A stretch of 64,000 nt of DNA, taken from positions 7,588-71,587 of the forward strand of contig CAJPGC010000011.1 in assembly GCA_905339405.1 (NCBI GenBank), written 5' to 3'. The DNA is from an uncultured bacterium (GTDB taxonomy: Bacteria > Desulfobacterota > GWC2-55-46). Each line of letters opens with the position of its first letter. Position 1 is the stretch's first letter. Positions 54,976 through 61,290 of this stretch are shown here, in pieces. A program made the translations under genes and the position numbers. The notes under the pieces were generated by a model. That model was not told the origin of the DNA. It did not search any database and saw only the letters and a list, made by a program, of their open reading frames with translations.

Positions 54976-57351
54976 ATGCGCATCATCAAGATAATCCTCG
55001 CCGCGCTCCTCATAATGGTCGCGGCCGGGTTCGGCACCTACTTCTATTTTACCCGCGGCCTTCCCTCGCTCGAGACCCTACACGATTACCACCCTAACCT
55101 GGTGACAAAGGTCTATTCCAACGACGGCAGGATAATCGGGGAGTTCTTCATCGAGCGCCGGATAGTCGTGCCTTTCGAGCGCGTTCCCAAGCACCTCGTC
55201 CAGGCCTTTGTAGCCGCCGAAGACTCGAAGTTCTTCGAGCACGAGGGCATTAGCTACACGAGTATCCTCCGCGCGATGCTCAAGAACGTGACGGCCGGGA
55301 GGGTCGTGCAAGGCGGGTCGACCATAACCCAGCAGGTCGCAAAGAGCTTTTTCCTCACCTCTGAAAGGAAGATATCGAGGAAGATACGCGAGGCCATCAT
55401 GGCCTACAGGATAGAAAAGAACCTCAGCAAGGAAGACATACTCCACCTCTACCTCAACCAGATATACTTCGGCAACGGCGCCTACGGCATCCAGACCGCC
55501 GCGGAGACCTACTTCGGCAAAGACGTCTCCCAGCTTACGGTCGCTGAGGCTGCCCTCCTTGCCGGGCTCCCCAAGGCGCCAAGCAAGTACTCGCCGCACG
55601 AGAACCTCGAGCTTTCAAGGCAGCGCCAGAAGTACGTCCTCGAGCGCATGGCCGAAGAGAAGTTCATAACCGTCGACCAGGCCGGAAGAGAGTTCTCACG
55701 CCCCTTGAACCTCATGCCCAAAAGGAGCGAGAGCCTCTGGGTAGGCCCCTACTTCACAGAAGAAGTAAGAAAGTACCTGGAACTCAAATACGGCGAAGAG
55801 CTCCTTTACAAGAGCGGGCTCGAGGTCTTCACCACGCTCGACGTCGACATGCAGAAGGCCGCCAACAGAGCGGTTGACGAGGGCCTCCGTGAGTACGACA
55901 AGAGGCGCGGCTACAGGGGGCCTGTAAAAGTCCTCAAAGACGGCGAAGAGGCCGCCCAGTTCGCCAAAGAGGCGGACAAGAAGCTCGTCTACGACAAGCC
56001 TTCCTCCGGAAAGGTCTACCTCGGCGCGGTCACGGGCTTCAACGGCAGGAACAACACTCTCGGGGTCGACATAGGCTCCCGCCACGGGGTCATCGCGAAA
56101 GCCGACATGGAATGGGCGCGCCTCTACAACCCCACAACTGAATCTGACGGCGGCAAATATACGGAGCTTTCAAAGCTCTTCAAGCCCGGAGACGTAATAC
56201 AGGTAATGGTCAAGGAGACCCCGGCAAGCGAGGCGACCACCCTTGCCTTGAAGCTCGAACAGGAGCCGCTGGCGCAGGCGTCACTTCTCGCGATGGAACC
56301 TGAGACAGGGGCGATTAAAGCCATGGTCGGCGGGTTCGACTTCGCAAAAAGCCAGTTCAACAGGGCCGTGCAGGCTTTCCGCCAGCCGGGCTCTTCTTTC
56401 AAGCCCATAATCTACACCGCTGCCATAGACGGCAACTTCACCCCGGCGTCGATTGTAATGGACTCCCCCCTGGTCTTCGAGGAGGCACAGCAGGAGGTCG
56501 CGTGGAGGCCGAGGAACTACGACGAGCAGTTCTTCGGGCCCACGACCATCAGGGAGGCCATCGCCCGCTCGAGGAACATCATAACGATAAAGGTATTAAA
56601 AGAGGTCGGCATAGACAAGGCCATCCAGTACGCCAGGCTCCTCGGGATAAACTCTCCGCTCGCGCGCGACCTCTCGCTGGCGCTCGGCTCCTCGGCGGTA
56701 ACGCTACAGGAGATGACGGTCGCGTACTCCACCCTTGCGAACATGGGCACCAAGCCCGAGCCCCTTTACATCACGAGGGTCCAGGACAGGGCCGGGACGG
56801 TCCTGGAGGAGAACGCGCCTTTTTCCACGCAGGTCCTGAGCCCGCAGACTTCGTACATAATGACGAGCCTCCTGCAGAGCGTCGTGGAGTCCGGCACGGG
56901 CATGAGGGCAAGGGCCCTTGGAAGGCCCGCCGCCGGAAAGACCGGCACCACGAACAACCTGAACGACGCGTGGTTCCTCGGGTATATACCCGGGCTTGCG
57001 GCAGGCTCATGGGTGGGTTATGATAATGAAAAGCCACTCGGACGCGGTGAAACCGGGTCGGAAGCCGCCCTGCCCATCTGGCTCAAGTTCATGAAAGGCG
57101 CGGCGTTGAATATGCCCGCCCGGAGCTTCCCGATACCCGACGGGCTGGAGTTCGCGAAGATAGACTCCGAGAACGGGCTGCTGGCGGGCCCTGCCACGGA
57201 AGACGCGGTATTCGAGGTCTTCAGGACCGGCACCGCCCCAACGCAGATATCTTCGCAGAAGTCCCGTTCCCATTCCTCTGACTTCTTCATGATAGACACC
57301 GACGACAAGCCGGTGAAGAAAAAACCGCAGAGCCTTGAATTCGTCGATTGA
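54976..57351 (+). CDS. mrcA: Penicillin-binding protein 1A (bifunctional transglycosylase/transpeptidase)
   Basis: AAEDSKF, QGGSTITQQ, RKIRE, YLNQIYFG; QPGSSFK (SxxK), SRN, KTGT. Confidence 0.93.
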   Translation: MRIIKIILAALLIMVAAGFGTYFYFTRGLPSLETLHDYHPNLVTKVYSNDGRIIGEFFIERRIVVPFERVPKHLVQAFVAAEDSKFFEHEGISYTSILRAMLKNVTAGRVVQGGSTITQQVAKSFFLTSERKISRKIREAIMAYRIEKNLSKEDILHLYLNQIYFGNGAYGIQTAAETYFGKDVSQLTVAEAALLAGLPKAPSKYSPHENLELSRQRQKYVLERMAEEKFITVDQAGREFSRPLNLMPKRSESLWVGPYFTEEVRKYLELKYGEELLYKSGLEVFTTLDVDMQKAANRAVDEGLREYDKRRGYRGPVKVLKDGEEAAQFAKEADKKLVYDKPSSGKVYLGAVTGFNGRNNTLGVDIGSRHGVIAKADMEWARLYNPTTESDGGKYTELSKLFKPGDVIQVMVKETPASEATTLALKLEQEPLAQASLLAMEPETGAIKAMVGGFDFAKSQFNRAVQAFRQPGSSFKPIIYTAAIDGNFTPASIVMDSPLVFEEAQQEVAWRPRNYDEQFFGPTTIREAIARSRNIITIKVLKEVGIDKAIQYARLLGINSPLARDLSLALGSSAVTLQEMTVAYSTLANMGTKPEPLYITRVQDRAGTVLEENAPFSTQVLSPQTSYIMTSLLQSVVESGTGMRARALGRPAAGKTGTTNNLNDAWFLGYIPGLAAGSWVGYDNEKPLGRGETGSEAALPIWLKFMKGAALNMPARSFPIPDGLEFAKIDSENGLLAGPATEDAVFEVFRTGTAPTQISSQKSRSHSSDFFMIDTDDKPVKKKPQSLEFVD

Positions 57352-57358
57352 GGATGAT

Positions 57359-58357
57359 ATGCAGCAGCCGCTTGTAGATGCCTATGAAAGAAAGATAGAT
57401 TACCTCCGAATCTCCGTGACCGACAGGTGCAACCTCCGCTGCGTCTACTGCATGCCCCCGGAGGGCATAGACCTCGCGGAATCGAAGAACATACTGAGGT
57501 ACGAAGAGATAATGCGCCTTGTGCGCCTCTCGGCGGCCCACGGCATATCAAAGATAAGGGTCACTGGCGGCGAGCCACTGGTGCGAAAGGGCATAATAGA
57601 GTTCCTGCATGACGTCGCCTCGACCCCGGGGATAAAAGACCTGAGCCTCACCACGAACGGCGTGCTATTGAAGAGCTACGCTCAGCAGCTGAAAGACGCG
57701 GGGTTGAAGCGCGTGAACGTGAGCCTCGATTCACTCAAGCGCGAGCGCTTCCTCCAGATGACCCGCGGCGACAACCTCAAGGAAGTGCTCGAAGGGCTCG
57801 AAGAGGCCCAGAAGGTCGGCCTCACGCCGGTCAAGCTCAACATGGTCGTCATAAAGGGTTTCAACGACGACGAGATAGTCGATTTCGCCCTGATGTCGAA
57901 GACCAAGCCCTATCACATACGTTATATCGAGTACATGCCCTTCAACACGCAGGAGGGCTGGCAGCGGGACAAGTGCATAACAGCCAAAGAGATAAAAGAA
58001 AGAATTGAACAGGCCGTGGAGCCGCTTGAGCAGGTCACTGACACCAACGGCGCGGCAGGCCCGGCAAGGCGCTTTCGCTTCAAGGACGCGCCCGGAGAGA
58101 TAGGCCTCATAAGCCCTGTCTCAGAGCACTTCTGCGGGTCGTGCAACAGGCTCCGCCTCACCTCCGACGGCAAGCTCCGCACGTGCCTTTTCTCGGACAA
58201 TGAAATCGACCTCAGGACGCCCTTACGCGATGGCTCGGCCGACGAGGTGATTGAGAATATTCTCATGGCCGCCGTCAAGGAGAAGCCAAAGGGCCACACC
58301 ATAAACGAGAACATCTTCAAGAAGTGCAGTAGGACGATGAGCCTTATAGGGGGATAA
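57359..58357 (+). CDS. moaA: GTP 3',8-cyclase MoaA
   Basis: LRISVTDRCNLRCVYC, TGGEPL, FCGSCNRLRLT, C-terminal MSLIGG. Confidence 0.97.
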   Translation: MQQPLVDAYERKIDYLRISVTDRCNLRCVYCMPPEGIDLAESKNILRYEEIMRLVRLSAAHGISKIRVTGGEPLVRKGIIEFLHDVASTPGIKDLSLTTNGVLLKSYAQQLKDAGLKRVNVSLDSLKRERFLQMTRGDNLKEVLEGLEEAQKVGLTPVKLNMVVIKGFNDDEIVDFALMSKTKPYHIRYIEYMPFNTQEGWQRDKCITAKEIKERIEQAVEPLEQVTDTNGAAGPARRFRFKDAPGEIGLISPVSEHFCGSCNRLRLTSDGKLRTCLFSDNEIDLRTPLRDGSADEVIENILMAAVKEKPKGHTINENIFKKCSRTMSLIGG

Positions 58358-58376
58358 AACCCGTTGTCATTCTGAG
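58310..58376 (+). repeat. Copy 1 of an imperfect direct repeat: moaA 3' end plus TTGTCATTCTGAG
   Basis: Matches 59211-59278. Confidence 0.8.
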
Positions 58377-58491
58377 CGCAGCGACTGGTGCACACAACGC
58401 GGCCATAGATTGCTTCCGGATATACCTTGATTTTTGATGTGAAATCACTAAAAATGAAACATACTTTTCGATTCTTGGTTATGGACTGCCT

Positions 58492-58800
58492 ATGAGTAAC
58501 GAAATAAATATAGACATCCCGCATGAAAATATAGCGGAGTTTTGCAGGAAGCACCACATAAGAAAGCTTTCCTTTTTCGGCTCTGTACTCAGAGCGGATT
58601 TCAGCCCGGAAAGTGACGTCGACGTGCTGGTTGACTTCATTCCCGGCAAGGGACCGGGCTTCTTCGGGCTCTCACACATGGAGCTTGAGCTCACAGATAT
58701 CATCGGCAGGAAAGTGGACTTGCGCACCCCTAATGAGCTCAGCAGGTATTTCAGAGACGAGGTCTTATCCAGCGCCAGGACGGAATATGCGGAAGGATGA
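58492..58800 (+). CDS. mntA: Minimal nucleotidyltransferase antitoxin (MNT)
   Basis: FGSVLRADFSPESDVDVLV (GS-x10-DxD), GRKVDL; overlaps the HEPN gene. Confidence 0.9.
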   Translation: MSNEINIDIPHENIAEFCRKHHIRKLSFFGSVLRADFSPESDVDVLVDFIPGKGPGFFGLSHMELELTDIIGRKVDLRTPNELSRYFRDEVLSSARTEYAEG

Positions 58801-59131
58801 TCTCACACGGTTGAGACATATGCTGGATGCGGCAATGGAGGCACGGTCCTTTGCAGCCGGGAGTTCCAGGAGCGATCTCGGCGCCGACAGGAAACTCGCG
58901 CTGGCCATAGTCAAGGATATCGAGATGATTGGAGAAGCCGCCAGCAAAGTCTCTCAGGAAACAAGGGCCAGCTATCCCTCGATACCATGGCCCGATATCA
59001 TCAACATGCGTAATCGCCTGATCCACGCGTACTTCGATATCGATCTCGATGTCGTATGGGATACGGTCACCAAAGACCTGCCGTTCTTCATTGCACTCCT
59101 TGAAAGGACGCTCGCGCCTTACAAGACTTAA
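58787..59131 (+). CDS. hepT: HEPN (DUF86) RNase toxin
   Basis: IGEAASKV, IPWPDIINMRNRLIHAYFDID (R-x4-H), VVWDTV; ATG 58787. Confidence 0.9.
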   Translation: MRKDDLTRLRHMLDAAMEARSFAAGSSRSDLGADRKLALAIVKDIEMIGEAASKVSQETRASYPSIPWPDIINMRNRLIHAYFDIDLDVVWDTVTKDLPFFIALLERTLAPYKT

Positions 59132-59153
59132 AACCAACTCTCCCGACCTGAAT

Positions 59154-59203
59154 AATTTGTGGCGGCACTACAAATTTTGGGTTCAGGTTGCAAACCTGAA
59201 CCC
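59154..59203. repeat. Two adjacent palindromes (REP-like)
   Basis: AATTTGT-9-ACAAATT and perfect GGGTTCAGGTT-GCA-AACCTGAACCC. Confidence 0.7.
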
Positions 59204-59210
59204 GCCAAAG

Positions 59211-59258
59211 AACATATTTAAGAAGAGCTCAAGGACGATGAGCTTGATTGGTGGGTAG
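59211..59258 (+). pseudogene. Orphan second copy of the moaA C-terminal 15 codons plus stop
   Basis: NIFKKSSRTMSLIGG* vs NIFKKCSRTMSLIGG*; 36/48 nt identical, 11 of 12 differences silent. Confidence 0.85.
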
Positions 59259-59266
59259 TCGAGCCT

Positions 59267-59348
59267 TGTCATTCTGAGGAAACGAAGCGACCGAAGAATC
59301 TCGCCTTTGCAGTCATTGCGAGGAGCGGTTTTGCGACGAAGCAATCTC
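59267..59348. repeat. Two GTCATT-type palindromic elements in tandem
   Basis: GTCATTCTGAG...GAAGAATCTC (59267-59302) and GTCATTGCGAG...GAAGCAATCTC (59312-59348). Confidence 0.7.
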
Positions 59349-59365
59349 AATTGTAGCAGAAAATA

Positions 59366-59393
59366 AAAGGCCGGTTCGAATGAACCGGCCTTT
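59366..59393. terminator. Bidirectional terminator
   Basis: AAAGGCCGGTTC-GAAT-GAACCGGCCTTT with A/T-rich flanks. Confidence 0.7.
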
Positions 59394-59416
59394 ATGTTTT
59401 AATGCTTCTATTCAAG

Positions 59417-59462
59417 GGCGGGCAATGCCCGCCAAAAAGAAGGTGGGCGGTGCCAACCCTAC
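59417..59462. repeat. Two short GC-rich REP-like palindromes
   Basis: GGCGGGC-AAT-GCCCGCC and (minus strand) GTAG-GGTTGGC-ACC-GCCCACC with a GTAG foot. Confidence 0.6.
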
Positions 59463-60484
59463 CCGGCTGAATCCGCCAAAGTTTTTACCAGTTCAAGTTT
59501 ATGCGCTTCGTTCACCAAACGAGACTCATGTTTTTGTAAAAGCTCTCGTACATATTTTGCTTTAATCATTTTTCCAAACGGGATTCGCATAGTCACGTTA
59601 GGGGCATTTTCCATTGGGATTAAAGCTTGCCCACTTACAATTCCAACTAATTTTCCATCTTCCACAACTGGTCCTCCGCTATTACCTGGAAAAACGCTCA
59701 TATCAGACCAAAAAAACGGCAGTTCATCGTGCATCATTGACACTTTACCAAAAGAAAAAACCGGCAATGAAAAAATCAAAGAAGACCACTGCACAGCTGC
59801 ATCTGTTTTAGATAATGCACCGATCACTGAAGTGGTTTCAGGAAATCCAACTGTGAACACATCACTTCCCTCTTTAGATGGACTATCAAGAATAAACTCT
59901 GATGGAATTGGCTCATGCCCTACTCTCAAAAGTTCATCCGCAAAACCCTGGATGTGACTTTTCTGATCCAATGAAATAATGGCTAAATCTAATTCAGGCG
60001 TAGAGAACGTATATGGAAGAGTTCCTGATGCGCCGGCGCCAAGATTCATTAAGAATTCAGGAGTGGCATTGGATTTCCTCTTTACTTCATCGAAAGAGGG
60101 CACACGGAAAATTATATCAAAAATGCGATTATCAGCACGCTCGCTTGCCGATTGAATTAATTTAGGTCTTAAATGCTCTGAAAAAGACAAAGCACTTTTC
60201 TTTTCTGCTGCAATTTCACGAGAAGCTGATATTTTATCCCAAACAACGTGCCTAGCTGTAAGTAAATACCTTTTTTGTGCGTGAATAAAAAAAAGAGCAG
60301 TACCACGAAAGCGTATATCTCTGCCTTTTGTTGTTGCAATGCCTTCGGCAAATTCGTCGTGAGTTATTTCTGCTTTTTTTAATTTTTCATTTAACTCTTG
60401 AATGCGTTTGATTCGATCGGAAAAATGCTCACGATCAGTCGCACATTCGAGATGAATCACCGCCTTTTTCCATTTTTCCAACAT
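59459..60484 (-). CDS. Low-GC trypsin-like (S1) serine protease, no signal peptide
   Basis: LLTARH (His), DLAII (Asp), GNSGGP (Ser); spot counts of three 60-nt lines gave 30-45% GC. Confidence 0.82.
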   Translation of the reverse strand: MLEKWKKAVIHLECATDREHFSDRIKRIQELNEKLKKAEITHDEFAEGIATTKGRDIRFRGTALFFIHAQKRYLLTARHVVWDKISASREIAAEKKSALSFSEHLRPKLIQSASERADNRIFDIIFRVPSFDEVKRKSNATPEFLMNLGAGASGTLPYTFSTPELDLAIISLDQKSHIQGFADELLRVGHEPIPSEFILDSPSKEGSDVFTVGFPETTSVIGALSKTDAAVQWSSLIFSLPVFSFGKVSMMHDELPFFWSDMSVFPGNSGGPVVEDGKLVGIVSGQALIPMENAPNVTMRIPFGKMIKAKYVRELLQKHESRLVNEAHKLELVKTLADSAG

Positions 60485-60552
60485 GAATTTCGCTCCCTTT
60501 CTTCATGATAAACACAACACAACCGCTACACCATATAGGTGAATTAACACCC

Positions 60553-61290
60553 TCACCACCCCAGCTTCAATCTCTCCGCGAGCCTCTCCGGGAGGCCTGC
60601 CGCGAGTATCTTTTCTGAAGTCGTATGGATGTCGTACTCGACCCTGTGGAAGGTTATCTGTTTTTTCTTGGTATCGAAGACGAGAAAGGACGCCCTGGGG
60701 TCCCTGTCCCTGGGCTGGCCTATGGAGCCGGGGTTTATGAGGTATTTGACGCCCTTTTCAAGCTTGAAGGGGTTGCCGTTCACGACCGACATCTCTTCGC
60801 CGTTCAAAGCGTAAGCAGCAGGCACGTGCGTGTGGCCGAAAAAACAGAGGCCGAGCGTTGACTTCAGCTCGCTCATGAGGCCGAAGTTCCGCTCGGCGTC
60901 CCTGTGCCCCATGATGTACCTGTCGGTGTCGTTTACCCAGCCGTGTACTGCCAGAAACTTGCTGTTGACGAGGATGTTCCTCGGGAGGCCCTTTAAAAAC
61001 TCCCGGTTCTCCCCGCTTATAGCGTCCCTTGTCCAGTAAACGGCCGCAGCCGCGTGGAAATTGAAGTCGGAAGGCTCCTCGAACCCGGCGACCCTTGAAT
61101 CGTGGTTGCCGAGCAGGCACTGTACCCCCCGCTCGCGTAGCAACCCTATGCACTCGTTCGGGTTGGCGTTGTACCCTACTATGTCGCCGAGGCAGACTGT
61201 CTTGTCTATGTCCAGGTTTTCAGCGGCCTCGAGAAAGGAAGTCAGTGCTTCGAGGTTCGAATGGATGTCGGAGATTACGGCATAGCGCAT
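60553..61290 (-). CDS. Calcineurin-like metallophosphoesterase
   Basis: ISDIHSN, LGDIVGY, LGNHD, FGHTH, NPGSIGQPRD. Confidence 0.9.
   Translation of the reverse strand: MRYAVISDIHSNLEALTSFLEAAENLDIDKTVCLGDIVGYNANPNECIGLLRERGVQCLLGNHDSRVAGFEEPSDFNFHAAAAVYWTRDAISGENREFLKGLPRNILVNSKFLAVHGWVNDTDRYIMGHRDAERNFGLMSELKSTLGLCFFGHTHVPAAYALNGEEMSVVNGNPFKLEKGVKYLINPGSIGQPRDRDPRASFLVFDTKKKQITFHRVEYDIHTTSEKILAAGLPERLAERLKLGW

What the first reader, a model, noticed from the sequence alone, without database searches (positions are those of the whole stretch)
58310..59278. TA module bracketed by two moaA 3' ends that differ almost only at silent sites: moaA as a possible unrecognised integration or recombination target
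The last 16 codons of moaA (58310-58357) recur at 59211-59258. Of 12 differences in 48 nt, 11 are silent (including AGT/TCA Ser and TAA/TAG); the one amino-acid change is C to S, and the functionally required terminal GG is kept. Both copies are followed within 6-7 nt by TTGTCATTCTGAG. Mutational decay of a simple duplicate would not be confined to silent sites, so both tails were under selection as real moaA ends, most simply in different genomes. This is the signature of an element that recombines into a gene's 3' end and restores it with its own copy, as is established for tRNA, guaA and rlmH targets. I know of no such case for moaA. No integrase is present, so this is either a relic or was mobilised in trans or by homologous recombination.
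Basis: partly seen in the sequence, partly recalled or inferred. Interest (0 to 1): 0.72.

Follow-up and report, generated by a model that had tools for sequence, protein, structure and literature searches.

The report
Recombination scar beside moaA hotspot
A toxin-antitoxin gene pair sits between two copies of the end of the moaA gene that came from two different strains; this is most likely a scar of strain-to-strain recombination in a highly variable spot of the genome, not the footprint of an integrase-driven mobile element.

Summary
The last 16 codons of moaA recur 901 nt downstream with 12/48 differences, 11 of them silent (P<5e-7). The repeat is in fact 78 vs 83 nt. The arrangement is base-identical in independently assembled contigs. 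Between the copies lies an MNT/HepT toxin-antitoxin pair.

In about 40 related groundwater Desulfobacterota lineages, the gap between convergent moaA and a metallophosphoesterase gene ranges from 5 nt to over 5 kb and holds different cargo, including at least four kinds of addiction-module genes. One distant relative (L021) independently carries a ParE-type pair bracketed by two moaA tails, again differing almost only at silent sites. So moaA's 3' flank is a recombination hotspot.

An integrase-type attachment site is not supported. None of the gap ORFs I scanned is an integrase. The same pair sits at different positions in relatives, and the flanking repeats differ in place and length. The pair has diverged in step with its flanks, and one relative keeps only a 33-nt scar of it.

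Best reading: a recombinase-independent junction of two diverged alleles, formed by illegitimate or short-homology recombination, akin to 'insertion with long target duplication'. The second tail is a dead fragment. Moderately interesting; a new variant of a known kind.

The parts
57335..58357 (+). moaA (GTP 3',8-cyclase). Gene callers start it at ATG 57359. The C-terminus reads ...NENIFKKCSRTMSLIGG*.
   Evidence: Pfam Radical_SAM plus Mob_synth_C. Homologs are named MoaA by their sources. The last ~200 nt diverge from the closest relative L033 far more than the 5' part does: 97.6% vs 85.7% identity.
58308..58385 (+). Repeat copy 1: functional tail 1 (58310-58357), a 6-nt spacer, and the truncated left part of conserved block a (58364-58385). 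Junction J1 follows at 58385/58386.
   Evidence: In L087 block a continues as ...CGCAGCGA|AAGAATCTCGCC, whereas in the window it breaks into segment B.
58386..58425 (+). Segment B: a 40-nt leader shared with L092, where it follows the terminator. It looks like a degenerate copy of a GGTGCGC..GCGCACC-type repeat.
   Evidence: blastn L092 3896-4642 against window 58386-59136, 92.8%. The repeat resemblance was judged by eye.
58427..58454 (+). Inferred sigma-70-like promoter of the TA pair: TTGATT, 16 nt, TAAAAA. This is the left edge of the unit conserved across unrelated genomes.
   Evidence: Conservation begins at ...ATATACCTTGATTTTTGATG in the window, L001, L092, L097 and L093. The promoter scan did not call it, so this is inference.
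58492..58800 (+). MNT-type nucleotidyltransferase, the antitoxin of a type VII HepT/MNT pair. It carries a GSx10DxD motif (GSVLRADFSPESDVD).
   Evidence: Pfam NTP_transf_2/Polbeta; PADLOC PDC-S09; motif read from the translation.
58787..59131 (+). HepT (HEPN) toxin, 114 aa if it starts at ATG 58787, overlapping the end of MNT by 14 nt. It carries an Rx4HxY motif (RNRLIHAY).
   Evidence: Pfam HepT-like, 4.6e-24. The gene caller placed the start at 58820. The L097 homolog is 114 aa with the same 14-nt overlap.
59137..59208 (+). Segment D', unique to this lineage. It holds a small hairpin (59154-59176) and a strong hairpin c, GGGTTCAGGTTGCAAACCTGAACCC (59179-59203). Junction J2 follows at 59208/59209.
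   Evidence: Hairpin c has z = -5.5 and the small hairpin z = -3.1. Hairpin c recurs downstream of moaA in L005, L009, L013, L089 and L091. The rest of D' has no match in any locus.
59209..59291 (+). Repeat copy 2: moaA tail fragment (tail 2, 59211-59258; a pseudogene remnant with no moaA homology upstream), a 7-nt spacer and the start of an intact block a.
   Evidence: Tail 2 matches the L001 tail at 46/48 and the L033 tail at 43/48.
59266..59393 (+). The usual moaA-downstream block: conserved blocks a (59266-59301) and b (59310-59346), then a bidirectional intrinsic terminator (59366-59393). It is collinear with the sequence that directly follows moaA in L033, L087 and L092.
   Evidence: Alignment A1; blastn at 89% to L033 and 83% to L087; terminator scan with z = -8.3. 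Blocks a and b do not fold significantly but are dispersed repeats found in both orientations.
59459..60484 (-). Low-GC (about 0.39-0.42) trypsin-like peptidase gene, which fills a second variable cargo slot.
   Evidence: Pfam Trypsin_2; GC profile. Close relatives carry unrelated low-GC orphan ORFs here, of 322, 213, 196, 158 and 155 aa.
60553..61290 (-). Metallophosphoesterase gene, convergent with moaA. It is the conserved right border of the hotspot.
   Evidence: Pfam Metallophos. The synteny PBP1A-moaA-[gap]-MPE-ZnR-CcsA holds in most relatives. Divergence from L033 is uniform at about 3% right up to its stop codon.

Best explanation
What it is. The second moaA tail is a dead fragment left where two diverged alleles of a hypervariable locus were joined. 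The locus is the gap between the convergent genes moaA and a metallophosphoesterase gene (MPE).

The two alleles.
- One allele carried moaA, its tail, a truncated block a, and an MNT/HepT toxin-antitoxin pair. That pair is an old resident of this hotspot.
- The other allele contributed everything from codon 325 of its own moaA onward: the tail, blocks a and b, and the terminator. This is inferred; it probably also brought the low-GC trypsin-like gene.

The junction. Junction J2 (59208/59209) shows no moaA homology upstream of the shared AG, and it lies 5 nt after a strong hairpin. I infer it was made without a dedicated recombinase. Three routes are possible:
- (a) Homology-facilitated illegitimate recombination: one end of an incoming strand is anchored by homology in a flanking gene and the other end is joined illegitimately.
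- (b) Campbell-type insertion of a circular fragment carrying the TA pair plus about 80 nt of moaA-flank homology.

Any of these gives a TA pair bracketed by a 78-nt direct repeat whose copies come from different strains. That is why the copies differ only at silent sites.

Afterwards. The whole block then moves between strains by ordinary homologous recombination in the flanking genes. The TA pair probably helps the block persist through post-segregational killing, or acts in defence.

Shown: the anatomy, the two-lineage origin of the tails, the hotspot, the recurrence, the absence of an integrase among the ORFs scanned, and the lack of a common att site.

Inferred: which of the three routes made J2, and the direction of transfer.
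For: - Two-lineage origin of the tails: 11 of 12 differences are silent, P<5e-7. Tail 2 matches L001's tail at 46/48, while tail 1 is closest to the distant L005 and L018.
- Copy 2 is collinear with the full moaA-downstream block of L033, L087 and L092. Copy 1 breaks off inside block a.
- Hotspot: the moaA-to-MPE gap ranges from 5 nt to 5.6 kb, with different cargo in nearly every lineage. At least four kinds of addiction-module genes occur there: MNT/HepT in the window, L092 and L001; a second MNT/HepT in L089; ParE in L021; and an HI1420-type antidote in L020.
- Variable placement and repeats. L092 reads tail-a-b-Term-[B-TA]. L001 has the TA pair between two terminator copies that match at 32/37. 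L021 has about 104-nt repeats. L099 keeps only a 33-nt MNT scar.
- The TA pair co-diverges with its flanks.
- The same promoter-plus-two-gene unit occurs at 82-84% nt identity in unrelated contexts with no shared flanks. So it travels as a bare unit.
- No integrase was found in the gap ORFs scanned, and no viral contig carries the tail.
- Window versus L033: identity drops from about 98% to about 85% at roughly 58140-58200 inside moaA, and is back at about 97% in MPE, uniform right up to its stop codon. The whole block is therefore exchanged by flanking homologous recombination.
Against: - Two independent TA insertions both duplicated the moaA tail, 16 and 25 codons, with repeat ends 24-28 nt past the stop. 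That is more regular than random illegitimate joining would predict.
- It was the only gene-tail duplication found in the window and in about 100 loci. However, all those loci were chosen around moaA.
- J2 shows only 2-3 nt of microhomology, so homology-facilitated illegitimate recombination is not positively shown.
- The published target duplications are nearly identical (for example 44/46), whereas these copies are about 77% identical.
- A recombinase encoded elsewhere in the genome cannot be excluded, because only 64 kb of this genome was seen.
- I could not scan metagenomes for more cases, because that scan was lost to a tool error.
Confidence: 0.65

Rival explanations
1. Site-specific integration in trans. 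The 0.9-kb TA cassette would be a non-autonomous element (like a cis-mobilisable element, CIME) whose attP mimics the last ~16-25 codons of moaA. A tyrosine or serine recombinase encoded elsewhere (by an ICE, a prophage or the chromosome) would insert it into the moaA 3' end and restore the gene.
For: - The direct repeats bracket the cassette and the gene is restored.
- Single-copy sites that lack this TA pair exist.
- A second, unrelated TA cassette in L021 is also bracketed by moaA tails, with repeat ends a similar distance past the stop.
- The pattern of differences is compatible with a reciprocal crossover near AAGAAG, between codons 6 and 7. This rests on only three sites.
Against: - No integrase was found in the gap ORFs scanned, and no viral contig carries the tail.
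- The window's ORF list shows housekeeping genes and nothing that looks like an integrase. That was judged by eye, not by profile search.
- The same TA pair lies at other positions in L092, L001 and L099, and a different pair in L089 has no tail repeat.
- Repeat boundaries differ between the window and L021.
- The TA pair co-diverges with its flanks.
Confidence: 0.12
2. Mobilisation or breakage by a REP-associated Y1 transposase (RAYT). The small repeats and hairpins that crowd this gap would be substrates of a Y1 transposase, whose cleavage next to hairpins created J1 and J2 and shuffled the blocks.
For: - J1 lies inside dispersed repeat a, and J2 lies 5 nt after the strong hairpin c.
- Repeats a, b and c and the GGGCGGGCATTGCCCGCC hairpin occur in the 64-kb window only at this hotspot.
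- A Y1_Tnp-like ORF flanked by such repeats sits in the corresponding region of L013.
- Blocks a and b are dispersed in both orientations.
Against: - The Y1_Tnp hit is weak: E = 1.8e-4, below Pfam's cut-off.
- No Y1 gene was seen near the window's locus.
- Blocks a and b do not fold better than shuffled sequence.
- RAYT or IS200-type insertion does not duplicate 78 nt of target.
Confidence: 0.06
3. Assembly chimera between two co-occurring strains.
For: The two tails do come from different lineages, and the samples are strain-rich metagenomes.
Against: - There is no shared k-mer at J2 on which an assembler could switch strains.
- The identical structure was recovered in contigs from separate runs, which by their record names come from different assembly pipelines. 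One is a 190-kb contig.
- An analogous structure exists in the unrelated L021.
Confidence: 0.02

Closest known systems
Insertion with long target duplication of restriction-modification units (Nobusato et al. 2000, Gene 259:99; Furuta, Abe & Kobayashi 2010, PMC2853133)
   Same: - A small addiction-type gene unit with no mobility genes.
- It is flanked by direct repeats of tens to hundreds of bp that correspond to a single copy in an empty-site genome.
- Repeat length and position vary from case to case.
- Two of the reported repeats overlap the 3' ends of genes.
   Different: - Here the cargo is a toxin-antitoxin pair.
- The two repeat copies are only about 77% identical and differ at silent sites, so they come from two strains. 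They are not a fill-in duplication of one target.
- The same gene end is involved twice, independently.
Integrative elements that insert into and restore a gene's 3' end, such as e14 and phage 21 in icd, ICESt1/ICESt3 in fda, and their integrase-less CIME derivatives (from my own knowledge, not checked here)
   Same: The gene's 3' end is duplicated, the working copy is kept intact, and the copies differ at synonymous sites.
   Different: - No integrase is present in this cassette or in the relatives' gap ORFs I scanned.
- There is no fixed att core.
- The cargo has sat at the locus long enough to co-diverge with the host.
Homology-facilitated illegitimate recombination in natural transformation (de Vries & Wackernagel 2002; Prudhomme et al. 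2002; from my own knowledge; the term also appears in PMC6382021, listed)
   Same: One homologous anchor in a conserved gene plus one illegitimate joint. This naturally yields the donor's gene end, then the cargo, then a leftover fragment of the recipient's gene.
   Different: It is not demonstrated here. Microhomology at J2 is only 2-3 nt, and whether these uncultured bacteria are competent is unknown.
HepT/MNT (HEPN/MNT) type VII toxin-antitoxin systems (Yao et al. 2020; Songailiene et al. 2020; from my own knowledge)
   Same: An MNT gene with GSx10DxD is followed by an overlapping HepT gene with Rx4HxY.
   Different: Activity was not tested. This is an ordinary member of the family by sequence.
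Cargo and defence hotspots between conserved core genes in bacterial pangenomes (from my own knowledge)
   Same: Conserved flanking genes surround a gap with high turnover of small, low-GC, TA-like or defence-like cargo. Alleles are exchanged by flanking homologous recombination.
   Different: The hotspot border reaches into the coding end of moaA and leaves diverged tail fragments.

Membership tests
Integrase-mediated integrative element targeting a gene 3' end | Direct repeats (attL/attR) bound the insert, and the gene is restored | tested here: met
   58308-58385 vs 59209-59291; moaA is intact
Integrase-mediated integrative element targeting a gene 3' end | A site-specific recombinase gene lies within or next to the element | tested here: not met
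   The insert holds only MNT and HepT. None of the 20 gap ORFs from relatives that I scanned is an integrase. The rest of this genome was not seen.
Integrase-mediated integrative element targeting a gene 3' end | The same att core or crossover position in independent insertions | tested here: not met
   The repeat starts at codon 325 in the window and at codon 316 in L021. In L001 the repeat is the terminator. L092 and L089 have no repeat.
Integrase-mediated integrative element targeting a gene 3' end | An excised circular form, or a precise empty site produced by excision | not testable with these tools
   This needs reads or PCR. Sites lacking the TA pair exist (L033, L087), but their flanks are diverged, so they are not excision products of this allele.
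Insertion with long target duplication (Kobayashi group) | Addiction-type unit, insert under 20 kb, no mobility genes | tested here: met
   The repeat copies start 901 nt apart, and MNT and HepT are the only genes between them
Insertion with long target duplication (Kobayashi group) | Flanking direct repeats over 30 bp that align to one copy in an empty-site genome | tested here: met
   The 78-nt repeat is present as a single copy in L033, L081/L087 and L092
Insertion with long target duplication (Kobayashi group) | Repeat copies nearly identical, as expected from duplication of one target | tested here: not met
   The tails are 36/48 identical, and the differences are silent and lineage-specific
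Homology-facilitated illegitimate recombination | One junction lies in extended homology (a mosaic flanking gene) | tested here: inconclusive
   moaA is mosaic relative to L033 from about 58140-58200. That tract spans the whole variable block, so it may reflect a later allele swap.
Homology-facilitated illegitimate recombination | The other junction lies at a short microhomology (3-10 nt) | tested here: inconclusive
   J2 shares only AG, or A-AG, with the moaA sequence upstream of the tail
HepT/MNT type VII toxin-antitoxin | MNT nucleotidyltransferase with GSx10DxD, plus an adjacent HepT with Rx4HxY | tested here: met
   Pfam NTP_transf_2 and HepT-like; motifs GSVLRADFSPESDVD and RNRLIHAY read from the translations
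HepT/MNT type VII toxin-antitoxin | Toxicity of HepT and its neutralisation by MNT | not testable with these tools
   Needs an expression assay
Integron gene cassette | An attC site at the cassette end and an intI/attI platform | not tested
   I saw no RYYYAAC/GTTRRRY-bounded attC at J1 or J2 by eye, and the window's ORF list shows no obvious intI. No profile search was run.

The most novel reading that the evidence does not exclude
Small toxin-antitoxin cassettes in this clade may have a recombinase-free 'homing' cycle. They would loop out as circles by recombination between their flanking repeats, carrying one copy of the moaA tail. They would then re-enter related genomes by short-homology (Campbell-type) recombination at the conserved end of moaA. 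Selection for an intact moaA and post-segregational killing would fix the insert. That would make an essential gene's conserved 3' end a shared landing pad for addiction modules without any integrase.
Probability: 0.15. Interest if true: 0.7.

Novelty: new variant of a known kind. Interest (0 to 1): 0.4.

Why it matters
How chromosomal toxin-antitoxin pairs move without mobility genes of their own is poorly understood. This locus offers a natural series of states in closely related genomes:
- an empty site;
- the pair after the terminator;
- the pair between terminator copies;
- the pair between diverged gene tails;
- a deletion scar.

It also offers an independent repeat of the gene-tail architecture in another lineage with another TA family. 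Together these show that a duplicated gene end with only silent differences does not by itself prove integrase-mediated integration. Exchange of alleles between strains at a hotspot can produce the same signature. If the recurrence at moaA turns out to be systematic, it would extend the 'long target duplication' mode of spread from restriction-modification units to toxin-antitoxin pairs.

Tried and rejected
- Metagenome-wide search for more moaA tail pairs. So the frequency estimate rests on about 100 loci from genome contigs and exact-protein look-ups.
- Viral contigs. No match to a degenerate tail pattern, and no relative of the MNT protein.
- Rfam, 57000-61000. Only sub-threshold chance hits.
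- Native versus foreign tail in L021. No relative is closer than about 77% nt, so this is undecidable.
- Crossover inside the tail. Tail 1 looks 'native' in codons 1-6 and 'foreign' in 7-16, and tail 2 the reverse. This rests on three sites, one of which is polymorphic in L001, so I did not rely on it.
- The break in moaA identity against L033 as evidence for the joining mechanism. Rejected as decisive, because the diverged tract runs from about 58150 to the MPE stop codon and so reflects a swap of the whole block.
- Tandem duplication in one genome followed by decay. Rejected because decay would not be confined to silent sites and tail 2 still matches a relative's working tail at 46/48.
- Blocks a and b as hairpins. 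They fold no better than shuffled sequence, so I call them dispersed repeats, not hairpins.
- PADLOC on the cargo ORFs. Only weak or candidate-family hits: PDC-S09 for MNT, PDC-S15 for the 155-aa ORF of L092, and a protease domain for the trypsin-like gene.
- Literature. No paper in the library holds moaA together with 'integration site' and attB.
Full report
**1. The observation**

Reading 57000-60200 confirms moaA at 57335-58357. Pfam finds Radical_SAM plus Mob_synth_C. The gene ends ...NENIFKKCSRTMSLIGG*.

Its last 16 codons (58310-58357) recur at 59211-59258 as NIFKKSSRTMSLIGG*. There are 12 nucleotide differences in 48. Eleven are silent, including AGT/TCA and TAA/TAG.

Both copies are followed, after 6 or 7 nt, by TTGTCATTCTGAG. 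That 13-mer occurs nowhere else in the 64 kb; 0.04 matches are expected by chance.

The homology actually runs 58308-58385 versus 59209-59291, about 22 nt into a conserved block I call 'a', with a 4-nt indel.

In 2,000,000 trials that placed 12 random substitutions on tail 1, none kept the stop codon with at most one amino-acid change.

Contigs from ENA ERZ22157287 (190 kb) and from Logan ERR13927214 and ERR12380222 are 100% identical over the entire structure. There is also no shared k-mer at the junction 59208/59209 on which an assembler could switch strains. A chimera is therefore very unlikely.

**2. Anatomy**

Between the copies lie:
- a 40-nt leader, segment B (58386-58425);
- a promoter-like TTGATT-16 nt-TAAAAA (58427-58454, inferred);
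- an MNT nucleotidyltransferase gene (58492-58800, GSx10DxD motif);
- an overlapping HepT gene (58787-59131, Rx4HxY motif). Together these form a type VII-like toxin-antitoxin (TA) pair;
- 72 nt unique to this lineage, segment D' (59137-59208), containing a strong hairpin GGGTTCAGGTTGCAAACCTGAACCC (z = -5.5) that ends 5 nt before tail 2.

After tail 2 come block a, a related block b and a strong bidirectional terminator (59366-59393, z = -8.3). Next is a low-GC trypsin-like gene on the minus strand (59459-60484). Last is a convergent metallophosphoesterase gene, MPE (60553-61290).

**3. Relatives**

A scan of species-representative genomes places the window in groundwater 'Deltaproteobacteria'/Thermodesulfobacteriota MAGs.

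The order PBP1A-moaA-[gap]-MPE(-)-ZnR(-)-CcsA is conserved. The gap, however, ranges from 5 nt to 5.6 kb. It holds unrelated cargo in nearly every lineage. Much of it is orphan, low-GC ORFs.

At least four kinds of addiction-module genes occur there:
- the window's MNT/HepT, also in L092 and L001;
- a different MNT/HepT in L089/L090;
- a ParE-type pair in L021;
- an HI1420-type antidote in L020.

None of the gap ORFs I scanned is an integrase.

**4. States of the TA pair in close relatives**

- L033 (97.6% nt identity in the moaA 5' part) and L081/L087 (94%; contigs of 2.99 Mb and 1.1 Mb) lack the TA pair. In them moaA is followed directly by spacer-a-b-terminator, collinear with the window's copy 2.
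- L092 (93%) has moaA-tail-a-b-terminator-[B-TA] with no second tail.
- L001 (86%) has the TA pair between two copies of the terminator, matching at 32/37 nt.
- L099/L100 keep only 33 nt of the MNT start, 97% identical to 58481-58513. This is a deletion scar.

The TA pair is 92.8% identical in L092, where the flanks are 93.0%. It is 87.3% identical in L001, where the flanks are 85.6%. It has therefore sat at this hotspot since before these lineages split.

The same promoter-plus-two-gene unit also occurs at 82-84% nt identity in quite different contexts. One is a 38.6%-GC contig next to an AlpA gene and a helicase gene. Another lies next to ParB-like, AbiEii, NUDIX and restriction-helicase genes. 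No flanking sequence is shared. The pair thus spreads as a bare unit.

**5. A second, independent case**

L021 (73% amino-acid identity in MoaA) has a tail, then a ParE-family toxin with an upstream partner on the minus strand, then a second tail. The repeat is about 104 nt and begins at codon 316.

Over the 78 coding nt the copies show 9 differences. These are one Asn/Asp change, and the rest silent, including TCG/AGT at the same serine codon. The shuffle test gives P of about 3e-6.

A search for any duplicated gene tail in the window and in all fetched loci found only these two. Those loci were all chosen around moaA, so that result is biased.

**6. Where the tails come from**

Tail 2 matches L001's working tail at 46/48 and L033's at 43/48. 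Its two departures from L001 include the single Cys-to-Ser change, as expected for slight decay of a dead fragment.

Tail 1 (AGT ... ATA GGG GGA TAA) differs from all close relatives. It is nearest to the more distant L005 and L018, at 44/48.

Against L033, identity falls from about 98% to about 85% at roughly 58140-58200 inside moaA. It is back at about 97% in MPE, uniform right up to that gene's stop codon. The whole variable block, including the last ~200 nt of moaA, is therefore swapped between strains by homologous recombination in the flanking genes. For the same reason, this break does not tell how the duplication itself arose.

**7. Mechanism**

The architecture is [tail 1-a']-[B-TA-D']-[tail 2-a-b-terminator]. 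That is what one gets by inserting B-TA-D' into an empty site with a 78-nt duplication, or by joining two alleles out of register.

The copies are heterologous, and tail 2 has barely changed from a relative's working tail. In-place duplication followed by decay is therefore excluded.

Three recombinase-independent routes fit:
- homology-facilitated illegitimate recombination, with an anchor in moaA or MPE and an illegitimate joint at 59208/59209;
- Campbell-type entry of a circular fragment carrying the TA pair plus moaA-flank homology;

The variable repeats in the window (78 nt), L001 (37 nt) and L021 (about 104 nt) resemble a published pattern. [quoted passage not shown]

The gap is also crowded with small dispersed repeats and hairpins. 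Within this 64 kb, they occur only here. Junction J1 lies inside repeat a, and J2 lies just after hairpin c. Such structures may promote breakage. A weak Y1-transposase-like ORF lies in the corresponding region of L013, but I could not test a role for it.

**8. Why not an integrase-type att site**

- No recombinase lies in the cassette or in the gap ORFs I scanned.
- No viral contig carries the tail.
- The same TA pair sits at three different positions.
- A different pair in L089 has no repeat.
- The repeat boundaries differ between the two tail-duplication cases.
- The TA pair co-diverges with its host.
- The shared TTGTCATTCTGAG is the left end of repeat a. It follows moaA in L033, L087, L092, L001 and L099 after a strain-specific spacer, and it also occurs elsewhere in both orientations.

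A recombinase acting in trans is not excluded; I put it at about 0.12.

**9. Verdict**

The two-lineage origin of the tails is confirmed. The view of the moaA flank as a recombination hotspot is supported by variable cargo, by sites lacking the TA pair and by a second duplicated tail.

Site-specific integration that restores the gene is not supported. The structure is best read as a recombination scar that carries an old, selfish TA pair.

It is a new variant of a known kind of event. It is of moderate interest, mainly because the gene-tail architecture recurs with a different TA family.

Noticed in passing
window 59459-60484 (-); L033 795-1763; L081 5210-5851; L001 7942-8532; L089 5886-6362; L092 5064-5531: There is a second variable slot between the moaA terminator and MPE. 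Each close relative carries a different low-GC orphan ORF there. The window's is a trypsin-like peptidase; L092's 155-aa ORF hits the candidate defence family PDC-S15; the others have no Pfam or PADLOC hit.
   Followed up: partly
L097 1000-1707; L093 3917-4320: The window's TA promoter and genes recur at 82-84% nt identity in unrelated contexts. One is a 38.6%-GC contig beside an AlpA gene and a DEAD-helicase gene. The other has the MNT gene alone, followed by an AbiEii-like gene, a NUDIX gene and a restriction/helicase gene. No flanking sequence is shared.
   Followed up: partly
L099 5095-5127 (= L100 4728-4760): A 33-nt remnant of the ribosome-binding region and first codons of the MNT gene is all that remains of the TA pair in a relative whose moaA-MPE gap is only 170 nt. 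It is a clean deletion scar.
   Followed up: yes
L001 7470-7830 (and L101-L107): In the L001 lineage the HepT reading frame shifts shortly after its start, and gene callers report only a 69-aa product. The same gene calls appear in the other contexts shown for this lineage (20 contigs carry this MoaA). The toxin may be inactivated there while the antitoxin is kept.
   Followed up: partly
window 58364-58385, 59179-59203, 59266-59346, 59416-59434: Several families of small repeats or hairpins occur in this 64-kb window only inside the moaA-MPE gap, although blocks a and b are dispersed at other sites in relatives. The families are GTCATTCTGAG...GAAGAATC, GTCATTGCGAG...GAAGCAATC, GGGTTCAGG...CCTGAACCC and GGGCGGGCATTGCCCGCC.
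   Followed up: partly
L013 3568-4107 (-): An IS200-like Y1 transposase-type ORF (Pfam Y1_Tnp, E = 1.8e-4, just under the cut-off) is flanked by GGTGGGC..GCCCACCCTAC-type repeats. It lies downstream of moaA in a relative and may be a REP/RAYT pair.
   Followed up: no
L033 (CAJPFK010000130.1) and protein P0126 (NUN11671.1): Contigs carrying this clade's moaA are filed in public records under Methylophilaceae and Candidatus Micrarchaeota. These are probably binning contamination.
   Followed up: no
L020 7270-7656 (-): An HI1420-type addiction-module antidote gene lies about 270 nt downstream of moaA in another relative. It is a fourth kind of addiction-module gene at this hotspot.
   Followed up: no
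window 57722-58357 vs L033 1-639: The MoaA proteins are 100% identical over 212 residues although the DNA differs at 41 of 636 positions. All the changes are silent and are concentrated in the last 200 nt, which indicates very strong purifying selection on the C-terminal region.
   Followed up: yes
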